Source of the DNA: Candidatus Woesebacteria bacterium GW2011_GWB1_38_8b
GTDB taxonomy: Bacteria > Patescibacteriota > Microgenomatia > UBA8517
Assembly: GCA_000993115.1 (NCBI GenBank)
Contig: LBVN01000001.1
Location: 19,924 to 83,923, forward strand
Direction: 5' to 3'
Length of the DNA stretch: 64,000 bases
In this document: positions 8,143 through 41,829 of the stretch, in pieces
Layout of the letters: each line of letters starts with the position of its first letter
Numbering within the stretch: the first letter of the stretch is position 1
Program-made: the position numbers and the translations under genes
The notes under the pieces: model-generated
Database searches by the model: none
Seen by the model: the letters and a program-made list of their open reading frames with translations, nothing else
Told to the model about the DNA's origin: nothing

Positions 8143-9066
8143 TTACAAAGCAAGAAGTATTGCTATAAAGATCAAGAACCCTGCACCTATTGTAAAAATA
8201 ATAGTAGGGAAAGCAATTCCTGCATCAGCTAAAGTTCCACCGGTTGCTCCCGTTGAACCCGCACTTGCAATAGTTGTTGATGTTGGAGTTGGTGTATTTG
8301 TAGATGCCGTACCACCGGAACCGCTTGCGGTTGTTGGTGTTGGCGTATTAGTCGGTGTATTTGTTGGGGTGTTAGTCGGTAACCCACCCGACCCGCTTGC
8401 TGTTGTTGCAGTAGGTGTAGGTGTATTGGTGGGAGTTAGTGTTGCTGTCGCCTGTTGTTGGGTAGGAACAGGAGTGCCTGTAGCTGTTTCAGTTGGAATT
8501 GGAGTTGCAGTCGCGTTTGCTACCGGTAAAATCGTAAGATTTAACGGGACCGTATTTGCCAACACGTTTAGTCCAACGTCACCTGTGCTAACCGCCGCTA
8601 CCTTTGAACTTGGTTCGACTGCTATTGTCGCTACTCCTTCAGTAAGTGCAGTGAACGAAATTGTTCCGATACTACCTACTCCTGTTTGTGCTTGCCCGCC
8701 TGTCGGAAGATAAATAATGTAAGTTACCGTTCCTGCGGCGTTATCATAAGTTGAAGTTAGAACTTGAGCACCTGGAGGGAATGAACCAAGCGACAAATTA
8801 TTAATTTGTATAACATCTTTACTAAATGTTAGATACATTTCAGCACCAACTATTTCGTTCGATCCCGTATTTAAATCAATCGAAACATTAAATTGTTCCC
8901 CAACTCTAGGAGCCTGATTATCTGGTGTAAAATAAACCGTTGTTTCAGGTGCGGCTTTTTGTTCAAATACAGCCCTTCTCCCAACCAAAGTCACTCCGAG
9001 AAACACTCCCAAGCCCATAATTACGACTATAAAAATTGGGATAAATATTTTTGCTAATTTTTTCAT
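8143..9066 (-). CDS. Membrane-anchored cohesin-domain protein: N-terminal signal/anchor, cohesin-like beta-sandwich, Thr/Pro linker, C-terminal TM helix
   Basis: Cohesin-like pattern (VYFTPDNQAPRVGEQFNVSIDL...AEMYLTFSKDVIQI...GTISFTAL...). TP-rich linker with TNTPTNTPTNTPTPTTASGSGG repeats. C-terminus FPTIIFTIGAGFLIFIAILLAL. Confidence 0.6.
   Translation of the reverse strand: MKKLAKIFIPIFIVVIMGLGVFLGVTLVGRRAVFEQKAAPETTVYFTPDNQAPRVGEQFNVSIDLNTGSNEIVGAEMYLTFSKDVIQINNLSLGSFPPGAQVLTSTYDNAAGTVTYIIYLPTGGQAQTGVGSIGTISFTALTEGVATIAVEPSSKVAAVSTGDVGLNVLANTVPLNLTILPVANATATPIPTETATGTPVPTQQQATATLTPTNTPTPTATTASGSGGLPTNTPTNTPTNTPTPTTASGSGGTASTNTPTPTSTTIASAGSTGATGGTLADAGIAFPTIIFTIGAGFLIFIAILLAL
8270..8480. 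repeat. Low-complexity tandem repeat DNA encoding a Thr/Pro/Asn linker
   Basis: Periodic ggtgt(t/a)gg(t/a)gt units. The antisense ORF 8369..8713 is an artefact of this repeat. Confidence 0.7.
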
Positions 9067-9071
9067 TGTAA

Positions 9072-9626
9072 TTACTTTAACGTAATATTTAAGGGTTCTG
9101 CAACAATCGTTTTTACGCTATTTTGCCCGGCGGACTTTGATAACTGAGTAAGGTTCACCTCAGTCGTCTCAACCGACTTATCTAAAATCTGGAATTTAAC
9201 CGTGGCCATTACGTCTCCATCTGCCCGCGCCGATTGAAGTTGTCTTCCAACAGAATATATTAGTATCCCCGGCTTTGTAGTGTCCTTCTGGAGCACCACA
9301 CTTTTTTCCCAAATGTTCCCCTCGGTTACATCAACTATCCTTAAAATGGCTGGGTCATAAGTTAGTTCAAGCGTATATCCTGCAGATTCAAAACTTTCAG
9401 AATCCTGTATTTTAAGTGAAACTTCCAGTTGATCTGAAATAGGGGTTTCCGCAGAAAACTCGACGAACATTTGTTCAGGCACAGCAGTCGGTGTTTGCGA
9501 TACAGATGTTACCGGTGGTATAACAACCGGTTCATTTTTGCCTTTATTCATTCTATAAAATACAACTATTCCGATTACAAAAACATAAACTACGGCTAAA
9601 ACTATCCAAATATTTAATTTTTTCAT
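9072..9626 (-). CDS. Cohesin-domain protein with an N-terminal TM anchor
   Basis: MKKLNIWIVLAVVYVFVIGIVVF anchor, then a cohesin-like segment ...VSLKIQDSESFESAGYTLELTYDPAILRIVDVTEGNI...DVMATVKFQIL... Confidence 0.6.
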   Translation of the reverse strand: MKKLNIWIVLAVVYVFVIGIVVFYRMNKGKNEPVVIPPVTSVSQTPTAVPEQMFVEFSAETPISDQLEVSLKIQDSESFESAGYTLELTYDPAILRIVDVTEGNIWEKSVVLQKDTTKPGILIYSVGRQLQSARADGDVMATVKFQILDKSVETTEVNLTQLSKSAGQNSVKTIVAEPLNITLK

Positions 9627-9673
9627 AATATATTTTATGCTACTAATCTAAAGTGTTCTATGTCCAAAATCGT

Positions 9674-9724
9674 AGTTCAACTCCGGTGCCCAAAGTTGGA
9701 GTTCAACTCCGGTGCCCAAAGTTG
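9674..9724. repeat. Tandem direct duplication (two 25-nt copies, 26-nt period) of the 3' terminal codons of gene 9703..10698, extending into its 3' flank
   Basis: agttcaactccggtgcccaaagttg occurs twice (about 9674..9698 and 9700..9724). Copy B encodes the last codons (FGHRS, stop at 9703..9705). Confidence 0.7.
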
Positions 9725-10698
9725 TAGAAAAGAACACTGTAATCCAGTATATCAACAGCCCCGGCGCTATCATGGTTTAGATTGGCTCTCGGATCGTAAC
9801 CCACCTGACCGGGTAATTTTCCAAAACTGGCAAATAAAATACTGTAATCAAGGATATCTACATTTCCGTCGCAGTTTGCATCTCCCGACCAACAATTAGG
9901 TGTTGGTGTTAAAGTATTTGTAATAGTGACAGGGGGGACAGTCCCTGTTGGCGTCATTGTGGGAGTGGGAGTGGGAGTTGGTGTTCGAGTCGGTGTAGGT
10001 GTGAATGTCGCTGTAGGTGTCGGTGTACGAGTCGGTGATGGTGTTGCCGTTGGCGTGGCTGTCGGAGTGTTTGTTACAACAGGATTAAGCGTAAAAGTCG
10101 AACCGGTTGAAGCAATAATCTGAGCCTCAGCTGTCATATTTACTATCTGAGAATCACTAACAGTAAAAGCAAGTTGAGAACTCACATTTGTTTGAGTAGT
10201 TGAGGATCGCACAGAAAAATTTGCAATCTCGAAAGTTCCTGTCGGGGGATTTGCCCTATCAAGCTCATCCAAACCAAGTGCAATTACAACTCTTCCTGTT
10301 GAATTCGCTTCCGCCATTGTCGTTTTAACGATCCAGGGGTCAGTTGCAGGCTCACGATTCTGTCTTAACCTCGTAGTTGTAGTTACTTCACTTGCCAAAT
10401 TAATTTGTGCAGGATTAAATGTCAATACAACTCTTGTAAAACCAATTAGCTGAGTTCCTGCACTTAAATTAACCCGAACCGTTGCATTCGGAGGTAGAGT
10501 CGCACTTGCCGGGGTTGTACTTAAAGTAACTGTCGTCACCGCTGCTTTGGGAACATATTGAACCGCTTTCCTTACAATAAATATAGCGGCGGGAAGTCCG
10601 ATTAATATTACAAGAAGGAGTGCCAATCTGGCCATAGTACCTTTCGGTAAATAGGACGATATTTTATGGGTAAATTTCATACCTAACTTAAAAAACAA
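9703..10698 (-). CDS. Adaptor scaffoldin-like protein: N-terminal anchor, cohesin-like domain(s), TP linker, and a C-terminal divergent Cys-flanked dockerin
   Basis: Cohesin-like VTLSTTPASATLPPNATVRVNLSA...VLTFNPAQINLAS...GRVVIALGL. Linker TPTATPTATPSPTRTPTPTA... Dockerin CWSGDANCDGNVDILDYSILFASFGK...NHDSAGAVDILDYSVLFYNFG. Confidence 0.6.
   Translation of the reverse strand: MFFKLGMKFTHKISSYLPKGTMARLALLLVILIGLPAAIFIVRKAVQYVPKAAVTTVTLSTTPASATLPPNATVRVNLSAGTQLIGFTRVVLTFNPAQINLASEVTTTTRLRQNREPATDPWIVKTTMAEANSTGRVVIALGLDELDRANPPTGTFEIANFSVRSSTTQTNVSSQLAFTVSDSQIVNMTAEAQIIASTGSTFTLNPVVTNTPTATPTATPSPTRTPTPTATFTPTPTRTPTPTPTPTMTPTGTVPPVTITNTLTPTPNCWSGDANCDGNVDILDYSILFASFGKLPGQVGYDPRANLNHDSAGAVDILDYSVLFYNFGHRS
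9935..10085. repeat. Low-complexity tandem repeat DNA encoding a Thr/Pro linker
   Basis: gtgggagtgggagttggtgttcgagtcggtgtaggtgt... The antisense ORF 9926..10123 (VGVGVGV) is an artefact. Confidence 0.7.
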
Positions 10699-10746
10699 TC
10701 TATTGACTAAATATGGCAGAATAATTCAAACGCGTCAAGCGTATTT

Positions 10747-12102
10747 TCAGTGATAATTTGACATCCAAATTACATAATCGGCTCCATCAACTCGTCCCGA
10801 ACTATTAAAGTCTCCAACAACGCGTCCTTGTGATGTTGTTTGGTTAAAATGATTAAGCCAGATAATATAGTCGACACCATCAACTCTCCCGTCACCATTT
10901 GCATCCCCCTGAACCAAAACTGTAGTTGGAGTTGGTGTTGGCGTACGAGTCGCTGTTGGAGTGGGTGTATTTGTTACGGCAGGTGTAGGGGTTGGAGTCG
11001 ATTGAGTTGAACCAGGCACCCAACCAGCAAGTTGGGCCATTAAAACCCAATAAGCTTTTGCTATTCTTACGTTTGCAGCACCCATACTGAAGTGGCCATT
11101 TTCGGTTTCTACTGTGTAATGTTGACAAATTGCCGGCTGGTTAATTCTATCATCAGGCCAATTTTCACAAACTGAGGTATTTTGACAATATAACACCCCG
11201 TCCCGGTTATCGTAACATTCCCTACCATCGGGCAGTGTGGCTTCGACATCCGCAAAATCAAGAAGTATTCTATAACGACCATTAGAATCCCGTCCGGAAT
11301 TGATAAATTGACGCATTTGATTATTAAAATTTGTTGAAACTTGTGTACCAATACTTCTTGCTAGACTCGTTGTCTGAAAGACAAAATATTTATTGCTATG
11401 TGCGACCAAACGTCTATCAAGATCGTAGACATCAGCTTTGTCACTGGAGTTATTATAAAAAAAACCACAACGTGGTTGATTACTCCCCCCGCAACTTGTT
11501 AAATTAGCTATAGAATCTCCATCCATCACATTCAAGTAGCTAAACTGGTAAGTATAAACATCAAAATCGTTTAAACTTCTCCCACCCTGAACCTGATTAT
11601 TATCAAGAAAAGTTATGTAATCGTTTGTCATTGTATACCACGTTGAAGCAAACCCTTCATGAATCCAGTTTGCACGATTGTAGCCACCAGTCCTACTCCA
11701 ATAAATATACTCAGGACTAAGATTATAACTTGGGTCGTTATGTACTAATTTTGTACACGTAAAGCTTGCTTGCGAACTTGATGGTGCTTCAAAGCAAGTT
11801 AACGCATCATTAGTAGTTACCCCTACGGAACGATTTCCAAATATTAACCTAATCTTTTCAGCCCTACAGAAATAACTTATTACACCAGTACTATCGTCTA
11901 TACAGTCACCATTTGAATCAGTAGTTGTAAAATCGGGGATTTGTTCGAAAAGAGCAATAGAATTTCTGTTAACAATTATTGGGGACTGCTGCAAGCGAAC
12001 GGATAAATTGGGATCTACCTGCGCATACACATTGCTCCTGCCAATCGAAAGTAATAAAAATGAAAAACAGACGGCAATAACCCTCTTGATAACTTTATAC
12101 AT
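10747..12102 (-). CDS. Secreted dockerin-bearing protein, unknown Cys-rich catalytic domain (family A, paralogue of 14580..15908)
   Basis: Signal peptide ending VYAQV. Conserved block CYDNRDGVLYC...PDD..NQPAICQHYTVE.ENGH..MGAANVRIAKAYWVLMAQLAGWVPG. C-terminal dockerin QGDANGDGRVDGVDYIIWLNHFNQ...GDFNSSGRVDGADYVIWMSNY. Confidence 0.6.
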   Translation of the reverse strand: MYKVIKRVIAVCFSFLLLSIGRSNVYAQVDPNLSVRLQQSPIIVNRNSIALFEQIPDFTTTDSNGDCIDDSTGVISYFCRAEKIRLIFGNRSVGVTTNDALTCFEAPSSSQASFTCTKLVHNDPSYNLSPEYIYWSRTGGYNRANWIHEGFASTWYTMTNDYITFLDNNQVQGGRSLNDFDVYTYQFSYLNVMDGDSIANLTSCGGSNQPRCGFFYNNSSDKADVYDLDRRLVAHSNKYFVFQTTSLARSIGTQVSTNFNNQMRQFINSGRDSNGRYRILLDFADVEATLPDGRECYDNRDGVLYCQNTSVCENWPDDRINQPAICQHYTVETENGHFSMGAANVRIAKAYWVLMAQLAGWVPGSTQSTPTPTPAVTNTPTPTATRTPTPTPTTVLVQGDANGDGRVDGVDYIIWLNHFNQTTSQGRVVGDFNSSGRVDGADYVIWMSNYH

Positions 12103-12164
12103 CTATAGATTTTCAATCATCCGGCAGTAATTTGCAACTACTTCGACCGGACAGTATCTCTTAA

Positions 12165-14513
12165 TCAAATACCATAATTATTTAACCAAATTATATAGTC
12201 TGCCCCGTCAACTTTTCCGGAATTATTAAAATCTCCGTTACTATAACCACTGGCATTTTGATCGTAATGATTTAGCCAGATAACATAATCCGCTCCATCT
12301 ACTTTTCCGTCACTATTTGCATCCCCCGGAATGACGGTCGGTGTTGGAGTGAGGGTTGTCTCTGTTGGTGTGGTGTTTAATAAAATTATTGCATCATTTG
12401 GTTGAAGAGTAACTTGATTCACAACACCTCCATCGTTATACCTTGCAATGCTTACAACTTTGAAAGCATCTCCTATGACCACGCCTGTACCCAAAGGCTT
12501 GATAACAACAGTCGACGTCTGATTAAAGTTAAATTTTCCCAAACTGTGCCAGCCAAGAGAACCCAAGGACTGATCAAGGTTGACATCAACTCCATTAATA
12601 CTAACAGTGACATTCTTGCTATAGGTAGTTAATGGTGCCACCCATGCCAAAACATCGTACTCTCCCGCATACGGAATTGTAAAATTGTACGTAAGGCTTG
12701 CATTTGCATTTGGAGCGTTTATTGAATGAATCTTTAATCCCCATTGGTCAAAACTTGCGGCAAGTATAGACCATGAACCGACAGCTATTGCCTGATCGTC
12801 ATCAATTCTTTGAAAATAAAGTGGGGCTTGAGAACCGTTAAGTTTCCGATAAGTTTTATCAAGTGTCACGGTTTGCTGCAGAGGCCCCTCGTTTAGAAGT
12901 ATTGTCCCGTTTTTAAAATGTCTTTGCCATACTCCTCCGACACCCTCCTGAAAGACAATATCGTCAAAGTAAATATCACCGGCAGCTATTCCTAAATCAA
13001 AAAGTAACGTACCATTTGTCCCTGTCCCTATAGCCTTCATTACGTAATAGTACTGCGTCCAATCAGTAAAAAAACGTATGTTATATGCAGCTTGCGCTAA
13101 ATATTCCCATGCACCTCCTGCTCTTTGGATTCTTACCCCGTTATAACGCGAGGTGTTGGCTTTAGCTTTAAAACTTAACGTATAATACTTTCCCGCCTCA
13201 ACTGAAACATAATTTTCTCTGAAAGTCACCCACCCACTTGATGCTCCTCCTATTTGAATGTGAGCAGAGCCGTTTTCTATATTATAGGTTGCTACAACAG
13301 TACTCCCGCTCGTACTTACAAACCAGGGACTAGTACCTGAAGAAAAGTTCCCGTTTACCACCTGATCGGGAGCAGTAATTTGGGAAATTAGCATCGGTGA
13401 GTCGATAGACTGTCCCAAGTATCCCAGCGACGAAACCTGACCTCGGGTACCGTATTCGTCATACCACCAGTTGGATCCCCACATATAGGGACCAAGATCA
13501 TAATGATACATTCCTCCCGCCATCATGGTTGAAACCAACCCAAAGCGCATCCGGTTATAATCAGTGCCATATTCAACCATCATTTCAGGTTTTATTGCCG
13601 TCCAGATATTTTGGAAATTATATTTGCTTCTCATTGTGACGCTGTCGGGAGTGTTTAACACACTAGTAGTGTTGGGAGAAATTGTGTTTTTTGATGTCCA
13701 TACGGAGAAATTATGGATTATTTCGGACCAAGGTCTACCGTAATCATTATCCAAATATCTTTTTATATCCATTTCAAATAATCGACCATTAATCCACTGG
13801 CTGAAATAAGGTGGAGAACCATTACAAAAAATAATCATGCCTGGGAAAGCAGCTCGGAGTCTTTGAAAAATATCAATTACACCTGAGGCATGATCGGCGT
13901 TTACAGTTGCTATATCATCGGGCACGCCATCAACATTCGCGTCAATATCATTGCCTAGTGTAATTGAAACTCCCGAATCATCAACCAAGTCAACTGTTAT
14001 GCCATCAAAATGACCGCCACTTAAATTCCAACGATTTATAAGATAATTTACTATAGTATCTCTACAATAAGTGTTACCCAAATTGGCATAGGCAGCATTA
14101 TATGTGACATCGCGTAAAATTGTCCCTACGGAATTTCGCAATATGCAAGCATAGTCTGGCGAACCAGGAGAAGCATTCCACCACTGAGGTTGGTTATCTA
14201 GACCTCTTCCCGGATCACTGGCAGTAATAATTGTAGCCGTAACTAAAACTTTCGTATTTGGATTTAGCGCATGAACAGCATCAGCCCGATCCTTAGATGA
14301 TTGGCTTGTGCCTGCCGAAGCCATTGACCAAAGATTAAAACCTGCAAAATAATCAGCATTGGTATTCGTATTGTATCCGCCCCACCAATTTAATATACGT
14401 GGATAACCTGAATCAGCATAAACATTTTTAGCAAAGCCTAATAAGGCAACCAAACTGCAAACAAATACAAAGCACATCTTGGTTAGACTTGTTATCACAA
14501 CCTCATTATACAA
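12165..14513 (-). CDS. Secreted glycoside-hydrolase-like TIM-barrel protein with a CBM4/9-like module and a C-terminal dockerin (family B, paralogue of 34445..36694)
   Basis: Signal peptide. N-terminal GHL/GH114-like region (HFDGITVDLV...). Middle module QVVNGNFSSGTSPWF...GWVTFRENYV..GKYYTLSFKAKA, typical of the CBM4/9/22 fold. Dockerin IPGDANSDGKVDGADYVIWLNHYDQN...NGDFNNSGKVDGADYIIWLNNY. Confidence 0.55.
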   Translation of the reverse strand: MYNEVVITSLTKMCFVFVCSLVALLGFAKNVYADSGYPRILNWWGGYNTNTNADYFAGFNLWSMASAGTSQSSKDRADAVHALNPNTKVLVTATIITASDPGRGLDNQPQWWNASPGSPDYACILRNSVGTILRDVTYNAAYANLGNTYCRDTIVNYLINRWNLSGGHFDGITVDLVDDSGVSITLGNDIDANVDGVPDDIATVNADHASGVIDIFQRLRAAFPGMIIFCNGSPPYFSQWINGRLFEMDIKRYLDNDYGRPWSEIIHNFSVWTSKNTISPNTTSVLNTPDSVTMRSKYNFQNIWTAIKPEMMVEYGTDYNRMRFGLVSTMMAGGMYHYDLGPYMWGSNWWYDEYGTRGQVSSLGYLGQSIDSPMLISQITAPDQVVNGNFSSGTSPWFVSTSGSTVVATYNIENGSAHIQIGGASSGWVTFRENYVSVEAGKYYTLSFKAKANTSRYNGVRIQRAGGAWEYLAQAAYNIRFFTDWTQYYYVMKAIGTGTNGTLLFDLGIAAGDIYFDDIVFQEGVGGVWQRHFKNGTILLNEGPLQQTVTLDKTYRKLNGSQAPLYFQRIDDDQAIAVGSWSILAASFDQWGLKIHSINAPNANASLTYNFTIPYAGEYDVLAWVAPLTTYSKNVTVSINGVDVNLDQSLGSLGWHSLGKFNFNQTSTVVIKPLGTGVVIGDAFKVVSIARYNDGGVVNQVTLQPNDAIILLNTTPTETTLTPTPTVIPGDANSDGKVDGADYVIWLNHYDQNASGYSNGDFNNSGKVDGADYIIWLNNYGI

Positions 14514-14579
14514 TTCTTTTAAATGTCCAAATATGAAGTATATTATCGGTTTAAAACTTTGGTAGCGGTACTAATGAAG

Positions 14580-15908
14580 CTATGAACTATAATTGTTAAC
14601 CCAAATAACATAATCCAAGCCATTAACCACACCATCAGAATTAAAATCTCCGTCCAACCTGCCCCAGGAGGTGTTTTGGTTAAAGTGAGAAAGCCAAATT
14701 ACGTAATCAACTCCATCCACCCGACCGTCACTATTTGCGTCAGCCTGATTGTATGACGGAATCGGAGTGAATGTTGGAGTTGGAGTTCTTGTTGACGTTA
14801 CCGTCTGAGTTGGTGTCGCGGTTATTTGTTGCTGTCCTGGGACCCAACCCGCAATCTGAGCAAGTAAAATCCAGTATGCTTTCGCCGATCTTATTAAACC
14901 GCCGCCCAATGTAAGGTGTCCGTTGTCTTGTTCAACAGTATAATTTTGGCAAATAGCCGGGTAATTTTGCCCATCATCAGGATAATTTTCTTGAAAGGTA
15001 GTCATGGGTGTGCAAGCCACACCTTCTTGTTTACGAACATAAGCCACCCCATCTCGGTTATCATAACAACTCACACCGCCTGGTGTATGAGAAATTATAT
15101 CTGCAAAATCAAACAGTATTTTATGATTAGAACTGGCAAAGCTTCGCATCTGATTATTAAACACCTCTCCATCTTCAGCACCGATACTTCTCGCATAACT
15201 TGTAGTCCAATAAATAAAAGCTTTATTTATGTACTGACTTTCAAGCTCAGTAATTCGGCCAATATGCCAGGGTTCATAGCTGTCATGACAGCCTGCCCTG
15301 TTTTGGGTCACCATAAAACCACATAGCGGATTGGCAATATTTGGTTGTTCATTGGTATTTCCTCCAATGTTAAGGTAGCTAAATTGATAGGTAACAATGT
15401 CATAACTGGCGATATTTTGGGGAAATAATGTACTTATAAAATTATCAGTTAAACTGTACCAGGACCCCTCCCGAAAAAGATATACAATATTACTGCGGTT
15501 ATATTTCGCAGGGTCCGGTGTAAATCTAATATCCTGCGGCACCACTCCATTATTCAAGTCTATCTGGTTATACATTCTACTGCACCATTGATTTGTATCA
15601 AAATAAGTTTTACGGCAGGAATTTGGTGACATTGCCCAACTTGTTGCTGTTAAACAGTCAAGTGACTCATTTATATTTTGACCAACGGAGCGGTCAGAGA
15701 AAAACACTCTGATATTTCTGGCGCGCTGCAAATAGTTTTCAGGGATTTGGTCAAATAAACCCAGTGAATTGTGATCGACTACGATTGGATTTGTCTGAAG
15801 GCGAGTTCTCAAGTTCGGGTCAACTTGAGCCTTCGTAATACTTGCAGATAATGAGAAAAAACACACCGCTAAAATTGATAAAAACAATAACTTGAACTCT
15901 TTTTTCAT
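14580..15908 (-). CDS. Secreted dockerin-bearing protein, unknown Cys-rich domain (family A paralogue)
   Basis: Shares blocks with 10747..12102 (AQVDPNL..RLQ, CYDNRDGVAY, YPDDGQNYPAICQNYTVEQDNGH, RSAKAYWILLAQIAGWVPG). Dockerin at the C-terminus. Confidence 0.6.
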   Translation of the reverse strand: MKKEFKLLFLSILAVCFFSLSASITKAQVDPNLRTRLQTNPIVVDHNSLGLFDQIPENYLQRARNIRVFFSDRSVGQNINESLDCLTATSWAMSPNSCRKTYFDTNQWCSRMYNQIDLNNGVVPQDIRFTPDPAKYNRSNIVYLFREGSWYSLTDNFISTLFPQNIASYDIVTYQFSYLNIGGNTNEQPNIANPLCGFMVTQNRAGCHDSYEPWHIGRITELESQYINKAFIYWTTSYARSIGAEDGEVFNNQMRSFASSNHKILFDFADIISHTPGGVSCYDNRDGVAYVRKQEGVACTPMTTFQENYPDDGQNYPAICQNYTVEQDNGHLTLGGGLIRSAKAYWILLAQIAGWVPGQQQITATPTQTVTSTRTPTPTFTPIPSYNQADANSDGRVDGVDYVIWLSHFNQNTSWGRLDGDFNSDGVVNGLDYVIWVNNYSS

Positions 15909-15930
15909 CTAATGGTTTTGAATAGGTTAA

Positions 15931-18924: not shown

Positions 18925-18935
18925 TAATAATTATA

Positions 18936-21926: not shown

Positions 21927-21964
21927 TTATATCAAAATATGTGAGCTAAAGAAAGTAAAGATTA

Positions 21965-27666: not shown

Positions 27667-27747
27667 ATTACTATTTTACAATGTTATATGAAAAATAAAT
27701 AACTCTGTTTCCAACTAAGAGGTCAAAGGATTCACTGAATTCTTTAC

Positions 27748-36694: not shown

Positions 36695-39362
36695 AATTAT
36701 TCAACCAAATCACATAGTCAGCCCCATCAACATTTCCTGAATTATTAAAGTCACCATTTGCAGGACCGGTGACATTTAGATTGTAGTGATTTAGCCAAAT
36801 TACATAATCAGCTCCATCAACTCGTCCGTCGTTATTCGCATCTCCTAGGATTGGCGTTGGTGAGATTGTAGGAGTAATACTTATCGATTGATTATAATTC
36901 CCGATTTTTACTCCAACATCTGTTGTTACCGAAGCCAAATTATTTAGATTTATTATCAGTTCACCTTGATTGTTCGTTGGAATTTGTGAACTTGTTTTAG
37001 CTAAATTCGCACCATTGTCGAATTGCCAATATTCTACTGGCAGGGTTTCGTTTACAGAAAAACCTGAAATTGTAACACTCCCTGTTAATCTACCTAAATC
37101 CCAAGTCTGGGAACATCCGGATATTCCACCCACTACTGCGCACCATGTGTGTTTTTTATTTTGAATCCAAAGGTGCGCCAATTTCTTTTGTATATTTTTC
37201 TGACCAATAACCCGAATCGAATTATTATCATATCCCAAGGCTCCTATATCTGTATAACCTCCCTGATTTAAAGGAATATTTACTAAAAAGTCGGAAAGGG
37301 GTTTAAATCTATCCCGATGGTCAAACGTCAAAGGACAAGGAACAACTCCCCCGGGACAGTCATAAATATGAAAATTTTCAAACCAATAAGATTCAATTAA
37401 TCCGCCAGAATTAAGTCCCGCCCAAAGAAAATTATGAAGCCAAACCCCATTAGTATCCTTTCTTATATCTGAATCCTGAACCAGGTTGTTATCAACCACA
37501 AAACCGGTTTCCCCCCTTACTGTCGGCCAGCGTGTGTTTGATTGCGTACCCCACTGCGAACTGGCATCAATAGTAGCTTGTGCCTCGTCATAAAAATCAG
37601 TCAATGGCACACAAGGATTTCCGGATCTTCTTATGTAGCAGTGAACATCAGCAAAATCAATACCGGGATAATTATTTAAATTCCAAGAGGATGTAGTCCC
37701 TGTCCAAACTGAAGTTGACACCATTTGATGCGGGGAAAATTGACCCATATATTCCCCCATCATATTAACCGAAATTCTGTGGCCAGAATAACCCGGATCA
37801 CCCTCGTTCACATATTCCCAGGAATGTATATTTGTCGAATATCCCCAACGGGCCTCCAGATATCTCCACCAAGCTTTTTGTAACCACCTTGTTTTGGTAA
37901 TGGAGGTGTCTGAGGGTCCATAAAAATAATAAGATACGGGGTTAAAATCACCTGTTGGATTCCCGCTATGGTCAATGTGTGTAAATGTCCACTCTCTGTG
38001 GTCTCCAATTACGGGACGAAGGTAAACACTGTTCTGTTTAGCCAACTCAACAACCTGATCAAAAGAAAAAGAATTTCGCTGGTCAAAATATCTATGGTGA
38101 TCCATTTTAGGTTTTTGTAAAATATTTGCACCAACCGCAATATTGTTCTGTAATTCCTTTATTTCAACCTCGGAAACTCTGACACTTCCTGAAGTTATAT
38201 TCTCGAGTTGTAAAAAAAGATGGTCTATGAAATCCTGATTTCCGGTCGTAAAAGTTCCCGTCAACCATTGCCAGGAAGCGTTTGCTCCCTGCCTTACATA
38301 AGGTGTAATTGCAGTTGCCGAATTACATCCCTGCCAAGTACCCAGTTTGGCTACAAATCCCCCCTCCCCAACAATATTATCAGGATAATAAAAAATTCTA
38401 ATTTGGTAAGTAGTGTTTGGTTTTACAGCAATTGGAGCGTTTTGGTATGGGTCATGAAAAACACAAGGGTACACTGTTCCTACTTTTAACGCCAGTTCAT
38501 GATCGCTTTCCAAATACTGATTAACGTTCGAGGTTAGAAGTTCCATCGGAGGATCGCCCCCTGTATTTCCAAATGCTTTCCATGGATTCCAACCTGCACC
38601 AAATATTGACCACTGAGACAGCCAAACGCGAATCAGTTGAACACCATTTTGTCCCATACTTTGAAAATTGGATTGATTTTGTGAAATCGGATTTACCCAG
38701 TTTACGTGGTTATAGTTCATGTTATATCCAAGACCGGCAAAATATGACCCATTATCAAATTCAAAATAGCGCTTATCACTTTGGGCAACTCTAATAAATC
38801 CCTTACTGCCTGATGCGACAACACTAAAGCCACTGATGTTTGAAGTTGAACTGCCTGATGCGTCTCGCACTTTTATTCTGTATTGCCAGTTTCCGACTTG
38901 GTTTGGTGCGTAACGAACTTTCCAGGAAAAATTTCCGTTTGGATATATCCAGTCTCTAGTCCCGTTGTTTTTGCTTAACATTGAAAAATCCTGATAATAA
39001 AAAGCTGGTTGCGTATAAGCATTGTTCCAGTCTGTTTCGCCTGGAGGAAGAAGCTCCGCGTCTACTGAAATTCCTAAATCGGCTTCTTTAAGGCCTGATG
39101 GCACAGGAGGTTCATAAGGAAGCTGTAAATTTTGTGCAACAGTATTTGCAACCTGAAAAGAAATTTCCAGCTTTTCGTATTTTGGAATTTGAGAACCCTG
39201 ATACGATGACCTATTATCGGAAATACTATTTATCGTAGGTCCCTGCTGGGCAAAAATATTTCTTGGATACACCAAAAAAAATCCCAAACATAGAAATAGT
39301 GATGTTAGAATTAATAGTCTTCGCATACTACTTATCAGTATATCAGCCAACTGGACTCTCAA
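36684..39362 (-). CDS. Secreted DUF5060/GH5-like (cellulase-superfamily TIM barrel) protein with a dockerin
   Basis: N-terminal Ig-like region, then a TIM-barrel-like core (KRYFEFDNGSYFAGLGYNMNY...RVWLSQW). Dockerin LGDANNDGRVDGADYVIWLNHYNLN...NGDFNNSGNVDGADYVIWLNNY. Confidence 0.4.
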   Translation of the reverse strand: MRVQLADILISSMRRLLILTSLFLCLGFFLVYPRNIFAQQGPTINSISDNRSSYQGSQIPKYEKLEISFQVANTVAQNLQLPYEPPVPSGLKEADLGISVDAELLPPGETDWNNAYTQPAFYYQDFSMLSKNNGTRDWIYPNGNFSWKVRYAPNQVGNWQYRIKVRDASGSSTSNISGFSVVASGSKGFIRVAQSDKRYFEFDNGSYFAGLGYNMNYNHVNWVNPISQNQSNFQSMGQNGVQLIRVWLSQWSIFGAGWNPWKAFGNTGGDPPMELLTSNVNQYLESDHELALKVGTVYPCVFHDPYQNAPIAVKPNTTYQIRIFYYPDNIVGEGGFVAKLGTWQGCNSATAITPYVRQGANASWQWLTGTFTTGNQDFIDHLFLQLENITSGSVRVSEVEIKELQNNIAVGANILQKPKMDHHRYFDQRNSFSFDQVVELAKQNSVYLRPVIGDHREWTFTHIDHSGNPTGDFNPVSYYFYGPSDTSITKTRWLQKAWWRYLEARWGYSTNIHSWEYVNEGDPGYSGHRISVNMMGEYMGQFSPHQMVSTSVWTGTTSSWNLNNYPGIDFADVHCYIRRSGNPCVPLTDFYDEAQATIDASSQWGTQSNTRWPTVRGETGFVVDNNLVQDSDIRKDTNGVWLHNFLWAGLNSGGLIESYWFENFHIYDCPGGVVPCPLTFDHRDRFKPLSDFLVNIPLNQGGYTDIGALGYDNNSIRVIGQKNIQKKLAHLWIQNKKHTWCAVVGGISGCSQTWDLGRLTGSVTISGFSVNETLPVEYWQFDNGANLAKTSSQIPTNNQGELIINLNNLASVTTDVGVKIGNYNQSISITPTISPTPILGDANNDGRVDGADYVIWLNHYNLNVTGPANGDFNNSGNVDGADYVIWLNNYGV

Positions 39363-39383
39363 TCCAGAAAAAAATTTGTGAAT

Positions 39384-40289
39384 CTAATTAAATGCAGACT
39401 GAGTTTTTTCTTTTTTGGATAATCGGCCGAGGAGAAATGCAAAAACAGAGATCAAAAACATAACTACCGCGATCAAAATAAAGACAAAGTAATTGGTATG
39501 TTTTTGTAAGACCGGGATTTCAGTCGTCCCCTCTCCTAACACCTCCGGATTATTTTCGGAAATATTGCTTGGAAAAACAAATTTTTCTTCATTTGATTTG
39601 AGAGTTCTTTCTTCTTGATTCGATGCGAGGATCTTATCTACGGCTTTAGTTGGTTTGGGTTTTTCATTGTTTAAAATGGCATTGAGTGAACTTGCATTTG
39701 TAAGTGTCAAGCTATTTACGCTTTCCAAAACATCAATTCCGGCCTTATTTACAACATTTGTATCGTTTGTCATTCCGGCTTCATACGTAAAGGAAAAAAC
39801 TGATTTCGAATTTTCCGATTTGCTTTTAAAATATATTGTTGTAAGTCTGGCGGTGCTACCCGAAAAGTATTTTCCAAAGTCGTTGGAAAAAGCAACCTTT
39901 AATTTTCCTGAATTGTTATCAATAATTTCTTTAGCTTTGTATGTTAAGAGTCCGTAATCGGATATGTTTGTCAGTTCGATATTATTTGGATCGAAACTCA
40001 TTACCAGATCAACACCAACAATTTCTTCTTTCCCCGGGTTAAGATAGATATCGACTGAGCTGTTCGAGTCTTTTTTTAAAGAAATTGAATCGGGAGAAAA
40101 AGATAACGACGGAATGCTATCCGCTTTGACGGGTGAAACACATAACCAAAACAACAAAACCGCAATATTTATACTGAAAAATTTATTGAATTTACTTGCG
40201 AAATCTACGGACTTTAGTCTGTAGATGAAGCAAGAATCTAATCTTGTCGACAAAATACCATGGTCTTCAGCCTGTGGTAGTTTATTCAT
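39384..40289 (-). CDS. Membrane-anchored cohesin-domain protein (C-terminal TM helix plus basic tail); the start is uncertain
   Basis: Cohesin-like DSIPSLSFSPDSISLKKDSNSSVDIYLNPGKEEIVGVDLVMSFDPNNIELTNI...TTIYFKSK. C-terminus YFVFILIAVVMFLISVFAFLLGRLSKKEK. The annotated N-terminal 30 codons coincide with repeat-element copy 3. Confidence 0.55.
   Translation of the reverse strand: MNKLPQAEDHGILSTRLDSCFIYRLKSVDFASKFNKFFSINIAVLLFWLCVSPVKADSIPSLSFSPDSISLKKDSNSSVDIYLNPGKEEIVGVDLVMSFDPNNIELTNISDYGLLTYKAKEIIDNNSGKLKVAFSNDFGKYFSGSTARLTTIYFKSKSENSKSVFSFTYEAGMTNDTNVVNKAGIDVLESVNSLTLTNASSLNAILNNEKPKPTKAVDKILASNQEERTLKSNEEKFVFPSNISENNPEVLGEGTTEIPVLQKHTNYFVFILIAVVMFLISVFAFLLGRLSKKEKTQSAFN
40196..40262. 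repeat. Copy 3 (partial) of the intergenic repeat family: gcgaaatc + hairpin + atgaagc.agaatc + cgacaaaa
   Basis: gcgaaatctacggactttagtctgtagatgaagcaagaatctaatcttgtcgacaaaa aligns with copy 2 at 57903..57960. The hairpin sequence differs but the pairing is preserved. Confidence 0.55.
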
Positions 40290-41829
40290 CTTCCCTGAAG
40301 AAATTATTGACTAAAATCCAAAAGTCGTAAGAATTTACAATTCCGTCTTTGTTGTAATCAGATGGTCCTGTCAAAAACCAATTCTGATACATTATTGCGA
40401 CATCGATATTATTAACAATTCCGTCATCGTTTAGATCCCCTGCAACTAAATTTCCGAAATTCAAAACGTTTGTCCCCTCAAGAAGAGTCTGCGAAATTCT
40501 TCTCCTCAAAAATCCCGATGATTTAAGCCTAAAGAAAAGTTCAGAATTTAAATAGGTATAATCAAGTTGCCAAGTTTGTGAATTTCCGTCATTATCAGTT
40601 GTAAAATTTTGCAGCCAAGTGTCATCGACTATTTCCACCGACCCTGATGCAACGTGTCCAATTGCAAGATTTTCGGAAGGAGTCTTTAGGTTTAAATAAG
40701 CAAATACATCTAATCCCAAAATATCCAAAATTGCACCGTTTGTAGTTTGTAAGATATCCTCTCCGTTTGTTGCAATTACGTTACTTTCAGATTTATCACC
40801 GAGAGTAAAATTAAAATTAAGCTCGGTTAGTCCGATTATTTTTGGTTTAACTGTTATACTCGCAACAATACCTCCTGAATTTATACTTTGTTGAGGAGTT
40901 TGGGTTGCCGAAATTCTTAAAATTCCGGGGGAACTGTTATTAAAAATAAAATTTCCACTAAAAAGACCGCTACTTGAAACGTTTATAATATCAACAGCCA
41001 GCGGATCGTAATTAATAACCGCGTCAACTCCAATTATCGGTGAAGATATTAATAAACTCAGGTCAACTTGGGATTCTTTCGTTATTTTAAATTCCCCGTT
41101 CGGAAAAAGCGATAAAGTTGCAGGCTGATTTGCTATCGGAGTAGGAGTTGGGGTAACTGTCGCCGTGGGTGTTGGTGTTGGTGTCTCAGTTTGAGTTGGT
41201 GTAACCGTGGGTGTAAAAGTCGGTGTATTTGTTGGAGTAAGTGTTGGGGTAGGAGAATCAGTTGGTGTTAACGTTGCAGTCGGAGTTTGGGTCGGGGCGT
41301 CAAATGAAATGTCAAAGTTCTGACTCCCAACAGTTAATTGTTGGGCAGCCATGTTAACAACACTAAAATTTTGAGTATTGAAAGTCAAAGAAGTACCACC
41401 TGAAGGTGTTCCTGTTTTATTAAATTCCAAAGTTGCCAATTCAAACTCTCCGCTTGGAGGATTGGCAACGTCTGCCGGCGACAATCCCAATACTATTGTT
41501 ACTACCCCATTTGCATTTGCATCGGCGACATTTGTAACAATTATTTGGTTTTTTAAAGGTCCTGTTGCCGCAACCGGTGCTGATAAACTCAGCTTAGTTT
41601 TGTCAAATGAAATTTCCACCGAAACAAATCCAATTAACTCGGAACCTGAATTAAGCATAATTTTGTAAGACCCACTTGTTAAAGTTGATAAATCATTTGG
41701 ACCTGTAATAAAAAGATTCGCTTGCGGTGTTTGCGCAGAAGTATTGATAATTTTTGTAAGAATTACAATTAAGCCAACAAAAACCAGCGCATAAAATTTC
41801 TTACCATGTAAATTCTTCAAAAAATTCAT
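40282..41829 (-). CDS. Scaffoldin-like protein: signal peptide, two cohesin-like domains separated by a TP linker, an X-like beta module and a divergent C-terminal dockerin
   Basis: Cohesin-like 1 (YKIMLNSGSELIGFVSVEISFDKTKLSL...VVTIVLGL). PT linker PTQTPTATLTPTDSPTPT... Cohesin-like 2 (ITKESQVDLSLLISSPIIGVDAVINYDPLAVDII...). Dockerin GDLNDDGIVNNIDVAIMYQNWF...DYNKDGIVNSYDFWILVNNFF. Confidence 0.6.
   Translation of the reverse strand: MNFLKNLHGKKFYALVFVGLIVILTKIINTSAQTPQANLFITGPNDLSTLTSGSYKIMLNSGSELIGFVSVEISFDKTKLSLSAPVAATGPLKNQIIVTNVADANANGVVTIVLGLSPADVANPPSGEFELATLEFNKTGTPSGGTSLTFNTQNFSVVNMAAQQLTVGSQNFDISFDAPTQTPTATLTPTDSPTPTLTPTNTPTFTPTVTPTQTETPTPTPTATVTPTPTPIANQPATLSLFPNGEFKITKESQVDLSLLISSPIIGVDAVINYDPLAVDIINVSSSGLFSGNFIFNNSSPGILRISATQTPQQSINSGGIVASITVKPKIIGLTELNFNFTLGDKSESNVIATNGEDILQTTNGAILDILGLDVFAYLNLKTPSENLAIGHVASGSVEIVDDTWLQNFTTDNDGNSQTWQLDYTYLNSELFFRLKSSGFLRRRISQTLLEGTNVLNFGNLVAGDLNDDGIVNNIDVAIMYQNWFLTGPSDYNKDGIVNSYDFWILVNNFFREDE
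41150..41300. repeat. Low-complexity tandem repeat DNA encoding a Thr/Pro linker
   Basis: ggagttggggtaactgtcgccgtgggtgttggtgttggtgtctc... The antisense ORF 41378..41668 is an artefact. Confidence 0.7.

What the first reader, a model, noticed from the sequence alone, without database searches (positions are those of the whole stretch)
8143..41829. 34-kb co-directional cellulosome-like supercluster: 13 dockerin-tagged secreted enzymes plus 5 cohesin proteins
Eighteen consecutive minus-strand genes encode Sec-secreted proteins. Thirteen end in the same two-segment calcium-binding dockerin-like module (D-x-N-x-D-G-x-V-D-G-x-D-Y-V-I-W, twice). The other five carry cohesin-like beta-sandwich domains. 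The catalytic parts are varied (GH-like TIM barrels with CBM4/9-like modules, GHL10-like, pectate-lyase-fold beta-helices, a heparinase-like lyase, DUF5060/GH5-like, three PQQ beta-propellers, two proteins of unknown fold). Cellulosome-type cohesin-dockerin assemblies are classically known from a few Firmicutes lineages. Here they sit in a small-protein, low-GC genome context reminiscent of CPR/Patescibacteria, next to secA, lon and lysS. That would make this an undescribed multi-enzyme surface complex, perhaps aimed at a host or environmental glycan rather than plant cell wall.
Basis: partly seen in the sequence, partly recalled or inferred. Interest (0 to 1): 0.9.

Follow-up and report, generated by a model that had tools for sequence, protein, structure and literature searches.

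The report
Cohesin-dockerin enzyme display cluster in Woesebacteria
A 34-kb operon-like block in a groundwater Woesebacteria (CPR) genome encodes 13 secreted carbohydrate-active-type enzymes with one shared dockerin tag and 5 cohesin scaffold or anchor proteins: a membrane-anchored, cellulosome-style complex that contains no recognisable cellulases.

Summary
Eighteen consecutive minus-strand genes (8143-41829) all start with a signal-like hydrophobic segment. Thirteen (ORF4-16) end in one near-identical ~54-aa, two-loop dockerin; ORF15 keeps only one loop. Five genes carry six cohesin modules.

ORF18 is Coh-Coh-X-Doc. Its AF2 model (pLDDT 85.7) best matches C. thermocellum CipA Coh9-X-DocII. 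ORF3 is Coh-Doc. ORF1 and ORF17 end in transmembrane helices.

The contig is Candidatus Woesebacteria GW2011_GWB1_38_8b (Rifle groundwater; GenBank KKQ877xx), so the CPR guess is right.

The ORF18-ORF17 gene pair recurs across CPR lineages. Two other genomes also keep the same four enzyme families next to it.

No cellulase family was detected. What could be assigned:
- a heparinase/PL15/PL17-like lyase
- a beta-propeller plus (alpha/alpha)6 toroid, in three copies
- a DUF5060 protein
- GHL10, a family with a peptidoglycan-cleaving member
- a beta-helix
- CBM4_9

Four catalytic domains remain unassigned.

Cellulosome components have already been reported in CPR Microgenomates (Roizmanbacterium, Shapirobacterales). 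It is therefore a new variant of a known kind, not a new category. The cohesin-dockerin pairings and the substrate are inferred.

The parts
40282..41829 (-). ORF18, primary/adaptor scaffoldin, 515 aa. Modules: signal peptide; class II cohesin (aa 36-175); PT linker; class I cohesin (aa 237-371); beta X-module (aa 375-460); type C dockerin (aa 463-515).
   Evidence: Pfam Cohesin and Dockerin_1. Profile A1 against PDB: cohesin 6kg8/6kgc at E 1e-5, dockerin 2y3n_B at 4e-7. AF2 pLDDT 85.7. Foldseek top hit CipA CohI9-X-DocII 4fl4_C at E 4e-17; single cohesins at target TM 0.7-0.79.
39384..40289 (-). ORF17, anchoring cohesin protein, 301 aa. Modules: signal peptide; class I cohesin (about aa 60-200); C-terminal TM helix (aa 269-287) followed by a basic tail. 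Overlaps ORF18 by 8 nt.
   Evidence: BLAST to ORF1 cohesin (3e-5) and ORF18b (7e-5). TM scan. A homolog follows the ORF18 homolog in all 12 related CPR loci checked for this pair, and 11 of those 12 end in a TM helix plus basic tail. No Pfam hit.
36684..39362 (-). ORF16, DUF5060-family enzyme (Ig-like N-domain plus catalytic domain) with type A dockerin.
   Evidence: Pfam DUF5060 at E 5e-6 (27.1 bits, just under the 27.2 cutoff) and Dockerin_1. Profile A4 hits PDB 9gmj_A/9gpc_A 'DUF5060 domain-containing protein' at E 2e-43. Homologs sit beside the scaffoldin pair in L006, L013 and L007.
34445..36694 (-). ORF15: unassigned N-domain, CBM4_9, Golvesin_C-like domain and a single-segment (half) type A dockerin. 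Paralog of ORF5 (74% identity).
   Evidence: Pfam. BLAST. Motif scan. The exact protein occurs on at least 20 independently assembled contigs.
32758..34452 (-). ORF14: right-handed beta-helix protein with choice-of-anchor Q domain and type A dockerin. Likely start is ATG 34452 (MYK...), 8 nt into the end of ORF15.
   Evidence: Pfam Beta_helix at 26.1 bits (cutoff 25.9) and Dockerin_1 at E 1e-8. NCBIfam choice_anch_Q at E 2e-8. Junctions.
31509..32765 (-). ORF13: about 350-aa catalytic domain of unassigned family with type A dockerin.
   Evidence: Dockerin seen by motif and alignment. No Pfam or NCBIfam hit for the catalytic part.
29561..31516 (-). ORF12: GHL10 (PF02638) TIM-barrel-type domain with type A dockerin.
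   Evidence: Pfam GHL10 at 49.1 bits (cutoff 27.9) and Dockerin_1 at 27.8 bits. The characterised family member Cwp19 is a peptidoglycan lytic transglycosylase (PMC6016235).
27748..29568 (-). ORF11: about 540-aa unassigned domain with type A dockerin.
   Evidence: Dockerin_1 at E 2e-4. No family found for the rest.
25063..27666 (-). ORF10: heparinase II/III-like / PL15-PL17-like polysaccharide-lyase-fold protein with type A dockerin.
   Evidence: Homologs are named heparinase II/III. Twenty of 31 aligned members match PF07940. The profile hits PL17 7bjt at 5e-5 and PL15 3a0o at 9e-5.
15931..25012 (-). ORF9 (21965-25012), ORF8 (18936-21926) and ORF7 (15931-18924): three paralogs (54-59% identity). 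Each has a BamB/PQQ-like beta-propeller, an (alpha/alpha)6 toroid (about 370 aa) and a type A dockerin.
14580..15908 (-). ORF6: unassigned about 330-aa domain (paralog of ORF4, 42% identity) with type A dockerin.
   Evidence: BLAST. Dockerin_1 at 22.7 bits.
12165..14513 (-). ORF5: unassigned N-domain, CBM4_9, Golvesin_C-like domain and type A dockerin.
   Evidence: Pfam. CBM4 of laminarinase 1gui at E 1e-8.
10747..12102 (-). ORF4: unassigned domain family with conserved DRSVGxN and D-G-G-H blocks and four conserved Cys, plus type A dockerin.
   Evidence: Dockerin_1 at 28.5 bits. Sixty-nine cluster representatives match ORF4 at E<=1e-30, most through this domain. No Pfam or PDB hit for the domain. 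Conservation.
9703..10698 (-). ORF3, adaptor: N-terminal TM/signal segment, class II cohesin (37% identity to ORF18a), PT linker and type B dockerin.
   Evidence: BLAST to ORF18 at E 6e-14. Dockerin hit to 2y3n_B at E 2e-4 and cohesin 3ghp_A at 0.044.
9072..9626 (-). ORF2: N-terminal TM anchor plus class I cohesin, 184 aa.
   Evidence: Pfam Cohesin at 38.7 bits (cutoff 24.1). TM scan.
8143..9066 (-). ORF1: signal/TM segment, class I cohesin, Thr/Pro-rich linker and C-terminal TM helix (aa 289-307).
   Evidence: Pfam Cohesin at 28.3 bits. TM scan.
41872..41899 (-). Promoter-like site (TTGACC-16-TATTAT with TG) 43 nt upstream of ORF18.
   Evidence: Consensus scan only. The number of sites in the region does not exceed shuffles.

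Best explanation
This is a cell-surface, cohesin-dockerin multi-enzyme display system of a Woesebacteria (CPR) cell.

Proposed assembly:
- Thirteen Sec-exported enzymes carry one shared 'type A' dockerin.
- They are captured by the two class II cohesins: the N-terminal module of ORF18 and the module of ORF3.
- ORF18 plugs its C-terminal X-dockerin (type C) into the cohesin of ORF17, the gene immediately downstream, which is held in the membrane by a C-terminal TM helix.
- ORF3 plugs its type B dockerin into a class I cohesin of ORF2 or ORF1, both membrane-anchored.

The enzyme set has glycan-processing folds: a PL15/17/heparinase-like lyase, an (alpha/alpha)6 toroid fused to a propeller, GHL10, DUF5060, a beta-helix and CBM4_9. 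It lacks recognisable cellulases. The likely substrate is a complex, probably acidic, polysaccharide such as biofilm EPS or another cell's envelope glycan, rather than crystalline cellulose.

Shown: module identities, folds of ORF18 and of the ORF7 C-domain, gene order and its conservation, taxonomy.
Inferred: which dockerin binds which cohesin, surface topology, catalytic activity and substrate.
For: Modules:
- Dockerin and cohesin are supported by Pfam, PDB sequence and profile hits and AF2 plus Foldseek.
- The dockerin loops follow the canonical D-x-N-x-D-G-x-V-D-x-x-D calcium pattern, twice, and are nearly symmetrical.

Export and anchoring:
- All 18 proteins have an N-terminal hydrophobic segment.
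- ORF1 and ORF17 have C-terminal TM helices.
- In 11 of 12 ORF17 homologs the protein ends in a TM helix plus basic tail.

Conservation:
- The ORF18-ORF17 pair is conserved in genomes labelled Woesebacteria, Microgenomates, Gottesmanbacteria, WWE3, Patescibacteria and (one) Gammaproteobacteria, and in metagenome contigs.
- Type A dockerin proteins lie next to the scaffoldin in 4 of 5 loci whose scaffoldin has a class II N-terminal cohesin. They do so in 0 of 8 loci without it.
- L006 and L013 keep the same four enzyme families (ORF16, ORF7-9, ORF10, ORF4/6) beside the pair.

Dockerin as an anchor tag:
- In homologs from other phyla, T9SS sorting domains occur in both the ORF10 and ORF4 families and an SLH domain in the ORF4 family. 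This fits, without proving, the dockerin being one of several interchangeable surface-anchor modules.
- ORF14 has a choice-of-anchor Q domain.

Enzyme folds.

Operon-like structure: 8-11 nt overlaps.
Against: - No binding was tested and no complex could be modelled.
- The pairing rests on 13 related loci that are not phylogenetically independent.
- There are only two class II cohesins for 13 enzymes.
- Several dockerin Pfam scores are below the gathering threshold.
- ORF17 and ORF3 cohesins have no Pfam hit.
- Four catalytic domain types (ORF4/6, ORF5/15 N-termini, ORF11, ORF13) have no assignable family.
- No catalytic residues were verified in any enzyme.
- Many dockerin-bearing proteins in other phyla have no known cohesin partner.
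Confidence: 0.75

Rival explanations
1. A true plant-cell-wall cellulosome: the complex degrades cellulose or hemicellulose, as in Clostridia. This is how earlier papers read CPR cohesin/dockerin hits.
For: The architecture resembles CipA Coh-X-Doc. CBM4_9 modules resemble the laminarinase/xylanase CBM4 family. Published interpretations of the Roizmanbacterium and Shapirobacterales proteins call them cellulosomes.
Against: No protein matches a cellulase or xylanase family such as GH5, GH9, GH48 or GH10 in Pfam or NCBIfam. No CBM3 is present on a scaffoldin. The assignable enzymes are lyase-like, GHL10, DUF5060 and six-hairpin-like.
Confidence: 0.07
2. The dockerin-like tags do not bind these cohesins. 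They act on their own as calcium-dependent stabilising, adhesion or glycan-binding modules. The neighbouring cohesin proteins are unrelated surface adhesins.
For: Non-cellulosomal dockerins without known partners are reported, for example as proposed adhesins in a giant Omnitrophota ORF. In four further loci (L025-L028), two have no type A dockerin gene within 10 kb of the scaffoldin pair, one has only a type B-like adaptor gene, and one (L028) does have type A dockerin genes. Several thousand library representatives match ORF4 at E<=0.001, many of the listed ones only through the linker-dockerin end.
Against: Thirteen tags sharing one sequence type sit in one co-directional block with six cohesins. 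Class II cohesin and type A dockerin co-occur (4 of 5 loci against 0 of 8). The scaffoldins carry their own distinct dockerins plus an X-module, as in hierarchical cellulosomes.
Confidence: 0.1
3. The block is foreign to the CPR genome, through mis-binning, a chimeric assembly or recent transfer from a cellulosome-bearing Firmicute.
For: The enzyme families have their most numerous homologs in Chloroflexota and Planctomycetota. GC is slightly higher in part of the block (0.44 against about 0.37-0.40).
Against: The block is flanked on both sides, on one contig, by housekeeping genes named Woesebacteria (secA, lysS). The same arrangement was assembled independently on at least 20 contigs from several samples. 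Scaffoldin homologs are found almost entirely in genomes labelled as CPR lineages. No close Firmicute homolog appeared.
Confidence: 0.03

Closest known systems
Clostridial cellulosome with hierarchical scaffoldins (C. thermocellum CipA Coh-X-DocII binding anchoring scaffoldins; A. cellulolyticus ScaA/ScaB)
   Same: Enzyme-borne duplicated calcium-loop dockerins. Cohesin beta-sandwiches on non-catalytic scaffoldins. A scaffoldin ending in X-module plus dockerin of a different type (best structural match 4fl4_C/3kcp_A). Separate anchoring cohesin proteins. Pro/Thr linkers.
   Different: Only two cohesins on the largest scaffoldin. Anchoring by TM helices, not SLH or sortase. No CBM3. No GH5, GH9 or GH48 cellulases. 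Compact ~54-aa dockerin. Host is a small-genome CPR bacterium.
'Scaffoldin-containing', presumably non-cellulolytic microbes of Minor et al. 2024 (for example Lachnoclostridium sp. MSJ-17 and Limihaloglobus sulfuriphilus; PMC11557425)
   Same: The largest scaffoldin has two cohesins. In Lachnoclostridium, single-cohesin proteins have C-terminal TM helices. There are many dockerin proteins and few or no lignocellulose GHs.
   Different: That survey covered RefSeq assemblies and reports no CPR genome. Here all components are clustered in one 34-kb block, with three dockerin types and an X-module.
Cellulosome components reported in CPR Microgenomates (Cand. Roizmanbacterium, cited as Geesink et al.; Cand. 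Shapirobacterales BG1-G2, expressed cohesin I/II and dockerin proteins; bioRxiv 10.1101/2021.08.21.457207 / PMC9123182)
   Same: Same superphylum and habitat (groundwater). Cohesin and dockerin domains occur together with GH/PL genes. Proteomic detection in Shapirobacterales shows such proteins are made.
   Different: As far as could be read, those reports are domain-level annotations interpreted as cellulose degradation. No gene-cluster architecture, scaffoldin hierarchy, TM anchoring or enzyme-family analysis was seen. The Roizmanbacterium paper itself could not be read.
Essential dockerin-domain envelope protein SEML1_0315 of the epibiont Southlakia epibionticum (Saccharibacteria; PMC10633639)
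   Same: A CPR envelope protein with a dockerin domain, speculated to target host-cell glycans.
   Different: A single protein. No cohesin partner or enzyme cluster is described. No homology to the window's proteins was tested.

Membership tests
Dockerin (Pfam PF00404, type I-like) | Two tandem 12-residue calcium-binding loops (D-x-[DN]-x-[DN]-G-x-[IV]-[DN]-x-x-D), each followed by a helix, about 55-70 aa in total | tested here: met
   Twelve type A modules, ORF3 and ORF18 have both loops. ORF15 has one only. Pfam hits are above the gathering score for ORF4, 8, 10, 12, 14 and 18. PDB dockerin 2y3n_B is hit at E 4e-7 by profile A1. The AF2 model of ORF18 shows two helices at aa 474-482 and 500-508.
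Dockerin (Pfam PF00404, type I-like) | Calcium-dependent binding to a cohesin | not testable with these tools
   The structure tool takes a single chain, so no complex could be modelled, and no experiment was possible. The only evidence is co-occurrence.
Cohesin (Pfam PF00963) | About 140-aa nine-strand beta-sandwich (jelly roll) with sequence or profile similarity to known cohesins | tested here: met
   Pfam hits are above the gathering score for ORF1, ORF2 and ORF18b. ORF18a hits PDB cohesins 6kg8/6kgc at E 1e-5. For the two-sandwich ORF18 model, Foldseek matches single cohesin chains at target TM 0.7-0.79; which sandwich each chain aligns to was not reported. ORF3 and ORF17 are assigned by BLAST to those modules (6e-14 and 7e-5) and were not modelled directly.
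Cellulosome (in the strict sense) | Dockerin-bearing cellulases or hemicellulases (for example GH5, GH9, GH48, GH10) assembled on the scaffoldin | tested here: not met
   No such family was found in any of the 13 enzymes by Pfam or NCBIfam or, for the six queries run (ORF5, 7, 10 and the ORF4, ORF16 and ORF7 C-domain profiles), by PDB sequence search. dbCAN was not available.
Cellulosome (in the strict sense) | Scaffoldin with several cohesins and a cellulose-binding CBM3 | tested here: not met
   The largest scaffoldin has two cohesins and no CBM.
Type II X-dockerin scaffoldin terminus (CipA-like) | An Ig-like X-module immediately before the dockerin, forming one unit that binds an anchoring-scaffoldin cohesin | tested here: inconclusive
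   A beta X-module (aa 375-460) precedes the dockerin, and the best Foldseek match is CipA CohI9-X-DocII. Binding to the ORF17 cohesin is inferred only from conserved adjacency.
Polysaccharide lyase, heparinase II/III / PL15 / PL17 superfamily (ORF10) | (alpha/alpha)n toroid plus Hepar_II_III_C beta-sandwich with sequence similarity to family members | tested here: inconclusive
   ORF10 itself has no Pfam hit. Twenty of 31 aligned homologs match PF07940, and the profile hits PL17 (5e-5) and PL15 (9e-5). Catalytic Tyr/His were not mapped.
GHL10 / PF02638 (ORF12) | Pfam GHL10 domain above the gathering score | tested here: met
   49.1 bits against a cutoff of 27.9, covering profile positions 72-177 of 311 in the best stretch. 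Activity was not tested.
PQQ-dependent dehydrogenase (ORF7-9) | Full eight-bladed quinoprotein propeller reaching family cutoffs, with PQQ/metal ligands | tested here: not met
   TIGR03075 scores 57 bits against a cutoff of 480, and Pfam PQQ is borderline (34.7, 26.9 and 22.9 bits for ORF7, 8 and 9; cutoff 26.7). Significant PDB hits include designed propellers, BamB and also quinoprotein alcohol dehydrogenases (E 1e-6 to 2e-10), so the match is to the propeller repeat, not to the enzyme family.
Six-hairpin (alpha/alpha)6 glycosidase-like fold (ORF7-9 C-domain) | (alpha/alpha)6 toroid superimposable on GH15, GH8, GH76, GH88 and similar | tested here: inconclusive

The most novel reading that the evidence does not exclude
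The complex is a membrane-tethered 'attack or foraging' organelle of an episymbiotic CPR cell. On this reading the conserved ORF18-ORF17 scaffold pair is a lineage-wide docking platform across Microgenomates and WWE3. It displays interchangeable dockerin-tagged enzymes (lyase-like, GHL10 peptidoglycan-cleaving type, six-hairpin, putative esterases) that open the envelope or EPS of a host bacterium. That would be a cohesin-dockerin system repurposed for cell-cell parasitism rather than plant biomass.
Probability: 0.2. Interest if true: 0.85.

Novelty: new variant of a known kind. Interest (0 to 1): 0.55.

Why it matters
CPR bacteria make up a large share of bacterial diversity, yet how these small cells feed on or attach to other cells and polymers is largely unknown.

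This locus gives a complete and compact parts list: a scaffoldin, an adaptor, three membrane anchors and 13 tagged enzymes. The scaffoldin-anchor pair is conserved in many CPR lineages.

Three questions become directly testable with recombinant modules:
- Does cohesin-dockerin assembly operate in CPR?
- How is the complex anchored in a cell that uses neither SLH nor sortase attachment here?
- Which glycans are targeted?

The locus also flags several sizeable, uncharacterised secreted enzyme families as candidate carbohydrate-active enzymes. These are the ORF4/6 domain, the propeller plus (alpha/alpha)6 family that is abundant in Anaerolineae, and a divergent heparinase-like clade.

It warns against annotating CPR cohesin/dockerin hits as 'cellulose degradation'.

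Tried and rejected
- Pfam at E up to 10 and NCBIfam gave nothing for the catalytic parts of ORF4/6, ORF5/15 N-termini, ORF11 and ORF13.
- PDB sequence and profile searches gave nothing for the ORF10 single sequence, the ORF7 C-domain profile and the ORF4 family profile. The only ORF4-family 'hits' were Pro/Thr linker matches.
- Two metagenome scans, for the ORF5 N-domain and for ORF13, found no relatives.
- The Roizmanbacterium paper (Geesink et al.) and Peer et al. 2009 are not held and could not be read.
- No paper was found for PDB 9gmj/9gpc, the DUF5060 protein, so its activity is unknown here.
- The idea that ORF7-9 are quinoprotein dehydrogenases was rejected.
- The idea that the half-dockerin of ORF15 is an assembly artefact was rejected, because the same protein occurs on at least 20 contigs.
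- Contamination or mis-binning was rejected.
- The SGNH-esterase reading of ORF4/6 rests only on conserved DRSVGxN and D-G-G-H blocks. It is a guess and is not used as evidence.
- The promoter and terminator scan gave no more sites than shuffles.

Full report
**What is there**

The window holds 18 consecutive minus-strand ORFs from 8143 to 41829. I number them ORF1 (8143-9066) to ORF18 (40282-41829). Spacing between genes is -11 to +81 nt.

ORF16 to ORF11 are chained by 8-11 nt overlaps. The last dockerin codons (...N-Y-N-V-stop) contain the next gene's ATG (M-Y-K...). All 18 products begin with a hydrophobic, signal-like segment, mostly ending in A-x-A/Q.

A regex for the dockerin calcium loop gives 26 matches in the six-frame translation. 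All 26 lie in this block. Base shuffles give a mean of 0.01 and residue shuffles give 0.

**Dockerins**

ORF4-16 end, after a Pro/Thr linker, in one module type ('type A', about 54 aa). Its form is GDANGDGRVDGADYVIWLNHYNQN, then about 7 residues, then DFNNSGVVDGADYVIWLTNY. Both loops keep the canonical calcium ligand positions 1, 3, 5, 9 and 12. The two halves are almost symmetrical.

Pfam Dockerin_1 matches 11 of these 13, plus ORF18. Six scores are above the gathering threshold (ORF4, 8, 10, 12, 14, 18). ORF13 matches only weakly (E 0.09), but all type A modules align with each other.

ORF15 has a single loop-helix. Its exact sequence occurs on at least 20 independently assembled contigs, so it is real. 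It looks like an in-frame deletion between the two repeats.

ORF3 and ORF18 carry two further dockerin types, which I call B and C. Both hit the solved B. cellulosolvens dockerin 2y3n_B directly (E 2e-4 and 1e-3; 4e-7 with a profile).

**Cohesins**

Pfam Cohesin matches ORF1, ORF2 and the second module of ORF18 above threshold. BLAST links ORF17 to ORF1 and to ORF18b; I call these four modules class I. It links ORF3 to the first module of ORF18 at 37% identity (E 6e-14); I call these two class II.

A 25-sequence profile of ORF18 homologs hits C. acetobutylicum cohesin 6kg8/6kgc (E 1e-5) with the class II module.

The AF2 model of ORF18 (pLDDT 85.7) shows these parts:
- beta-sandwich, aa 36-175
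- disordered PT linker
- beta-sandwich, aa 237-371
- a third beta module, aa 375-460
- a two-helix dockerin

Foldseek's best PDB match is the C. thermocellum CipA CohI9-X-DocII fragment (4fl4_C, 3kcp_A; E 4e-17). Next comes the A. cellulolyticus ScaA cohesin dyad, then many single cohesins at target TM 0.7-0.79.

So there are six cohesin modules on five proteins. ORF18 has the Coh-Coh-X-Doc layout of a scaffoldin that docks onto an anchoring scaffoldin.

ORF1 and ORF17 end in TM helices. ORF2 and ORF3 have strong N-terminal TM segments.

**Whose genome**

SecA, LysS and cluster proteins are identical to GenBank entries KKQ87785, KKQ87815, KKQ87806 and KKQ87795. These belong to 'Candidatus Woesebacteria bacterium GW2011_GWB1_38_8b' and near-identical Rifle groundwater MAGs.

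Lon, an LCP protein, a frameshifted serS and other housekeeping genes flank the block. The CPR guess is correct. A Clostridial origin or mis-binning is not supported.

**Conservation**

A scan of one genome per GTDB species with the ORF18 profile found relatives in genomes labelled Woesebacteria, Microgenomates, Gottesmanbacteria, WWE3, Patescibacteria UBA10118, 'Saccharibacteria', Azambacteria, one 'Gammaproteobacteria' MAG and an Omnitrophota MAG.

- In the eight closest genome loci (L006-L013) and four more metagenome loci (L025-L028), the ORF18 homolog is directly followed by an ORF17 homolog. Eleven of those 12 ORF17 homologs end in a TM helix plus basic tail.
- Three loci (L009, L025, L026) have a short type B-like dockerin protein just upstream, with a weak cohesin match in L025.
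- L006 (Woesebacteria) and L013 (WWE3) keep homologs of ORF16, ORF8, ORF10 and ORF4/6 next to the pair.
- Type A dockerin genes lie beside the scaffoldin in 4 of 5 loci where its N-terminal cohesin is class II, and in 0 of 8 loci where it is not.

This is the basis for assigning type A dockerins to class II cohesins, and the X-Doc of ORF18 to the ORF17 cohesin. Both assignments are inferences. The loci are not phylogenetically independent.

**Enzymes**

- **ORF10.** It has no Pfam hit itself. Its many homologs are named heparinase II/III. Twenty of 31 aligned members match PF07940. The profile hits PL17 (5e-5) and PL15 (9e-5) alginate lyases.
- **ORF16.** It matches the solved 'DUF5060 domain-containing protein' 9gmj/9gpc at E 2e-43. 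I found no paper on its activity.
- **ORF12.** It is a GHL10 protein (49 bits). That family's characterised member Cwp19 is a peptidoglycan lytic transglycosylase.
- **ORF14.** It is a beta-helix protein with a choice-of-anchor Q domain.
- **ORF5 and ORF15.** They have CBM4_9 and Golvesin_C-like domains after an unassigned N-domain.
- **ORF4/6, ORF11 and ORF13.** Their catalytic parts are unassigned. The ORF4/6 family has conserved DRSVGxN and D-G-G-H blocks and four conserved cysteines. I note this only as a possible SGNH-like signature.

No cellulase or xylanase family was seen anywhere.

Homologs of the ORF10 and ORF4 families in other phyla carry T9SS sorting domains, and one ORF4-family member carries an SLH domain. 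I read this as a sign that the dockerin serves as one of several interchangeable surface-anchor tags.

**How it most likely works**

Sec-exported enzymes are captured through type A dockerins by the class II cohesins of ORF18 and ORF3. ORF18 docks through X-Doc(C) onto membrane-anchored ORF17. ORF3 docks through Doc(B) onto ORF1 or ORF2. The result is a membrane-tethered, mixed glycan-degrading complex.

I put 0.75 on the general mechanism and about 0.4-0.5 on the specific pairings. The substrate is unknown. The lyase-like, GHL10 and six-hairpin components point away from cellulose. They point towards acidic or envelope-type polysaccharides.

**Comparison with what is known**

The system works like a small hierarchical cellulosome. 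It fails the strict cellulosome criteria: no cellulases, no CBM3, and two cohesins at most on one scaffoldin.

The closest described analogues are the 'scaffoldin-containing', presumably non-cellulolytic microbes of a 2024 RefSeq survey (PMC11557425). One of them has TM-anchored single-cohesin proteins. That survey reports no CPR genome.

Cohesin and dockerin 'cellulosome' proteins were already reported for the CPR Microgenomates Cand. Roizmanbacterium and, with proteomics, Cand. Shapirobacterales. A dockerin protein is essential in an epibiotic Saccharibacterium.

I found no description of the following:
- the clustered 18-gene architecture
- the three dockerin types and the X-module
- TM anchoring
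- the scaffold pair conserved across CPR lineages
- the non-cellulolytic enzyme set

**Verdict**

This is a real feature and a new variant of a known kind. Interest is moderate to high for CPR biology, and it is directly testable.

Noticed in passing
window 46251-47425 (-): The seryl-tRNA synthetase gene appears split by a frameshift. A 318-aa ORF (46469-47425) has the N-domain and part of the class II core. An overlapping 109-aa ORF (46251-46580) in another frame carries what looks like the C-terminal core (identified by eye, not searched). This could be an assembly error, a pseudogene or recoding.
   Followed up: partly
window 1860-3434 (+): A large serine recombinase (Resolvase, Recombinase and Zn_ribbon_recom domains) lies next to secA, on the opposite strand. 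It may mark an integrated element near the window start.
   Followed up: no
window 34445-34520 (-): ORF15 ends in a single-segment 'half' dockerin (GDANSDGKVDGADYVIWLSNYNV). It looks like an in-frame deletion between the two dockerin repeats. The exact protein is present on at least 20 contigs from several samples and assemblers.
   Followed up: yes
window 29561-36694 (-), gene junctions: ORF16 to ORF11 are chained by 8-11 nt overlaps. The conserved dockerin end (AAT TAT AAT GTA TAA = N-Y-N-V-stop) contains the next gene's ATG (M-Y-K). This suggests translational coupling and cassette-like duplication of signal-peptide/enzyme/dockerin units.
   Followed up: partly
window ~9655-9725 (-): A 26-nt stretch spanning the last codons and stop of ORF3 (AACTTTGGGCACCGGAGTTGAACT) is tandemly duplicated just downstream, with a third degenerate copy.
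   Followed up: no
window 10747-12102 and 14580-15908 (-): ORF4/6 belong to a secreted domain family with no Pfam or PDB sequence match. Sixty-nine cluster representatives match ORF4 at E<=1e-30. Members of the family carry dockerin, T9SS or SLH modules. Conserved DRSVGxN and D-G-G-H blocks and four conserved Cys suggest a hydrolase, possibly SGNH-like.
   Followed up: partly
window 15931-25012 (-); proteins P0234-P0352: The propeller plus (alpha/alpha)6 architecture of ORF7-9 defines a large uncharacterised family of about 920-aa proteins. The named members are mostly Anaerolineae (Chloroflexota), annotated only as 'PQQ-like' or 'BamB'. One close homolog (58% identity) is labelled Aenigmarchaeota.
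   Followed up: partly
L013 (WWE3 UBA1379) 9995-11483: The ORF18 homolog appears split into two ORFs, one with the class II cohesin alone and one with Coh-X-Doc. Its ORF8 homolog is 66% identical to the window's ORF8. That is unusually close for two different CPR lineages, so transfer or misclassification is possible.
   Followed up: no
window 61804-63033 (+) and 50761-51930 (+): Two further envelope-related genes lie outside the block: a phosphodiester glycosidase (NAGPA) domain protein with a 4HB_MCP-like N-domain, and a LytR-CpsA-Psr ligase.
   Followed up: no
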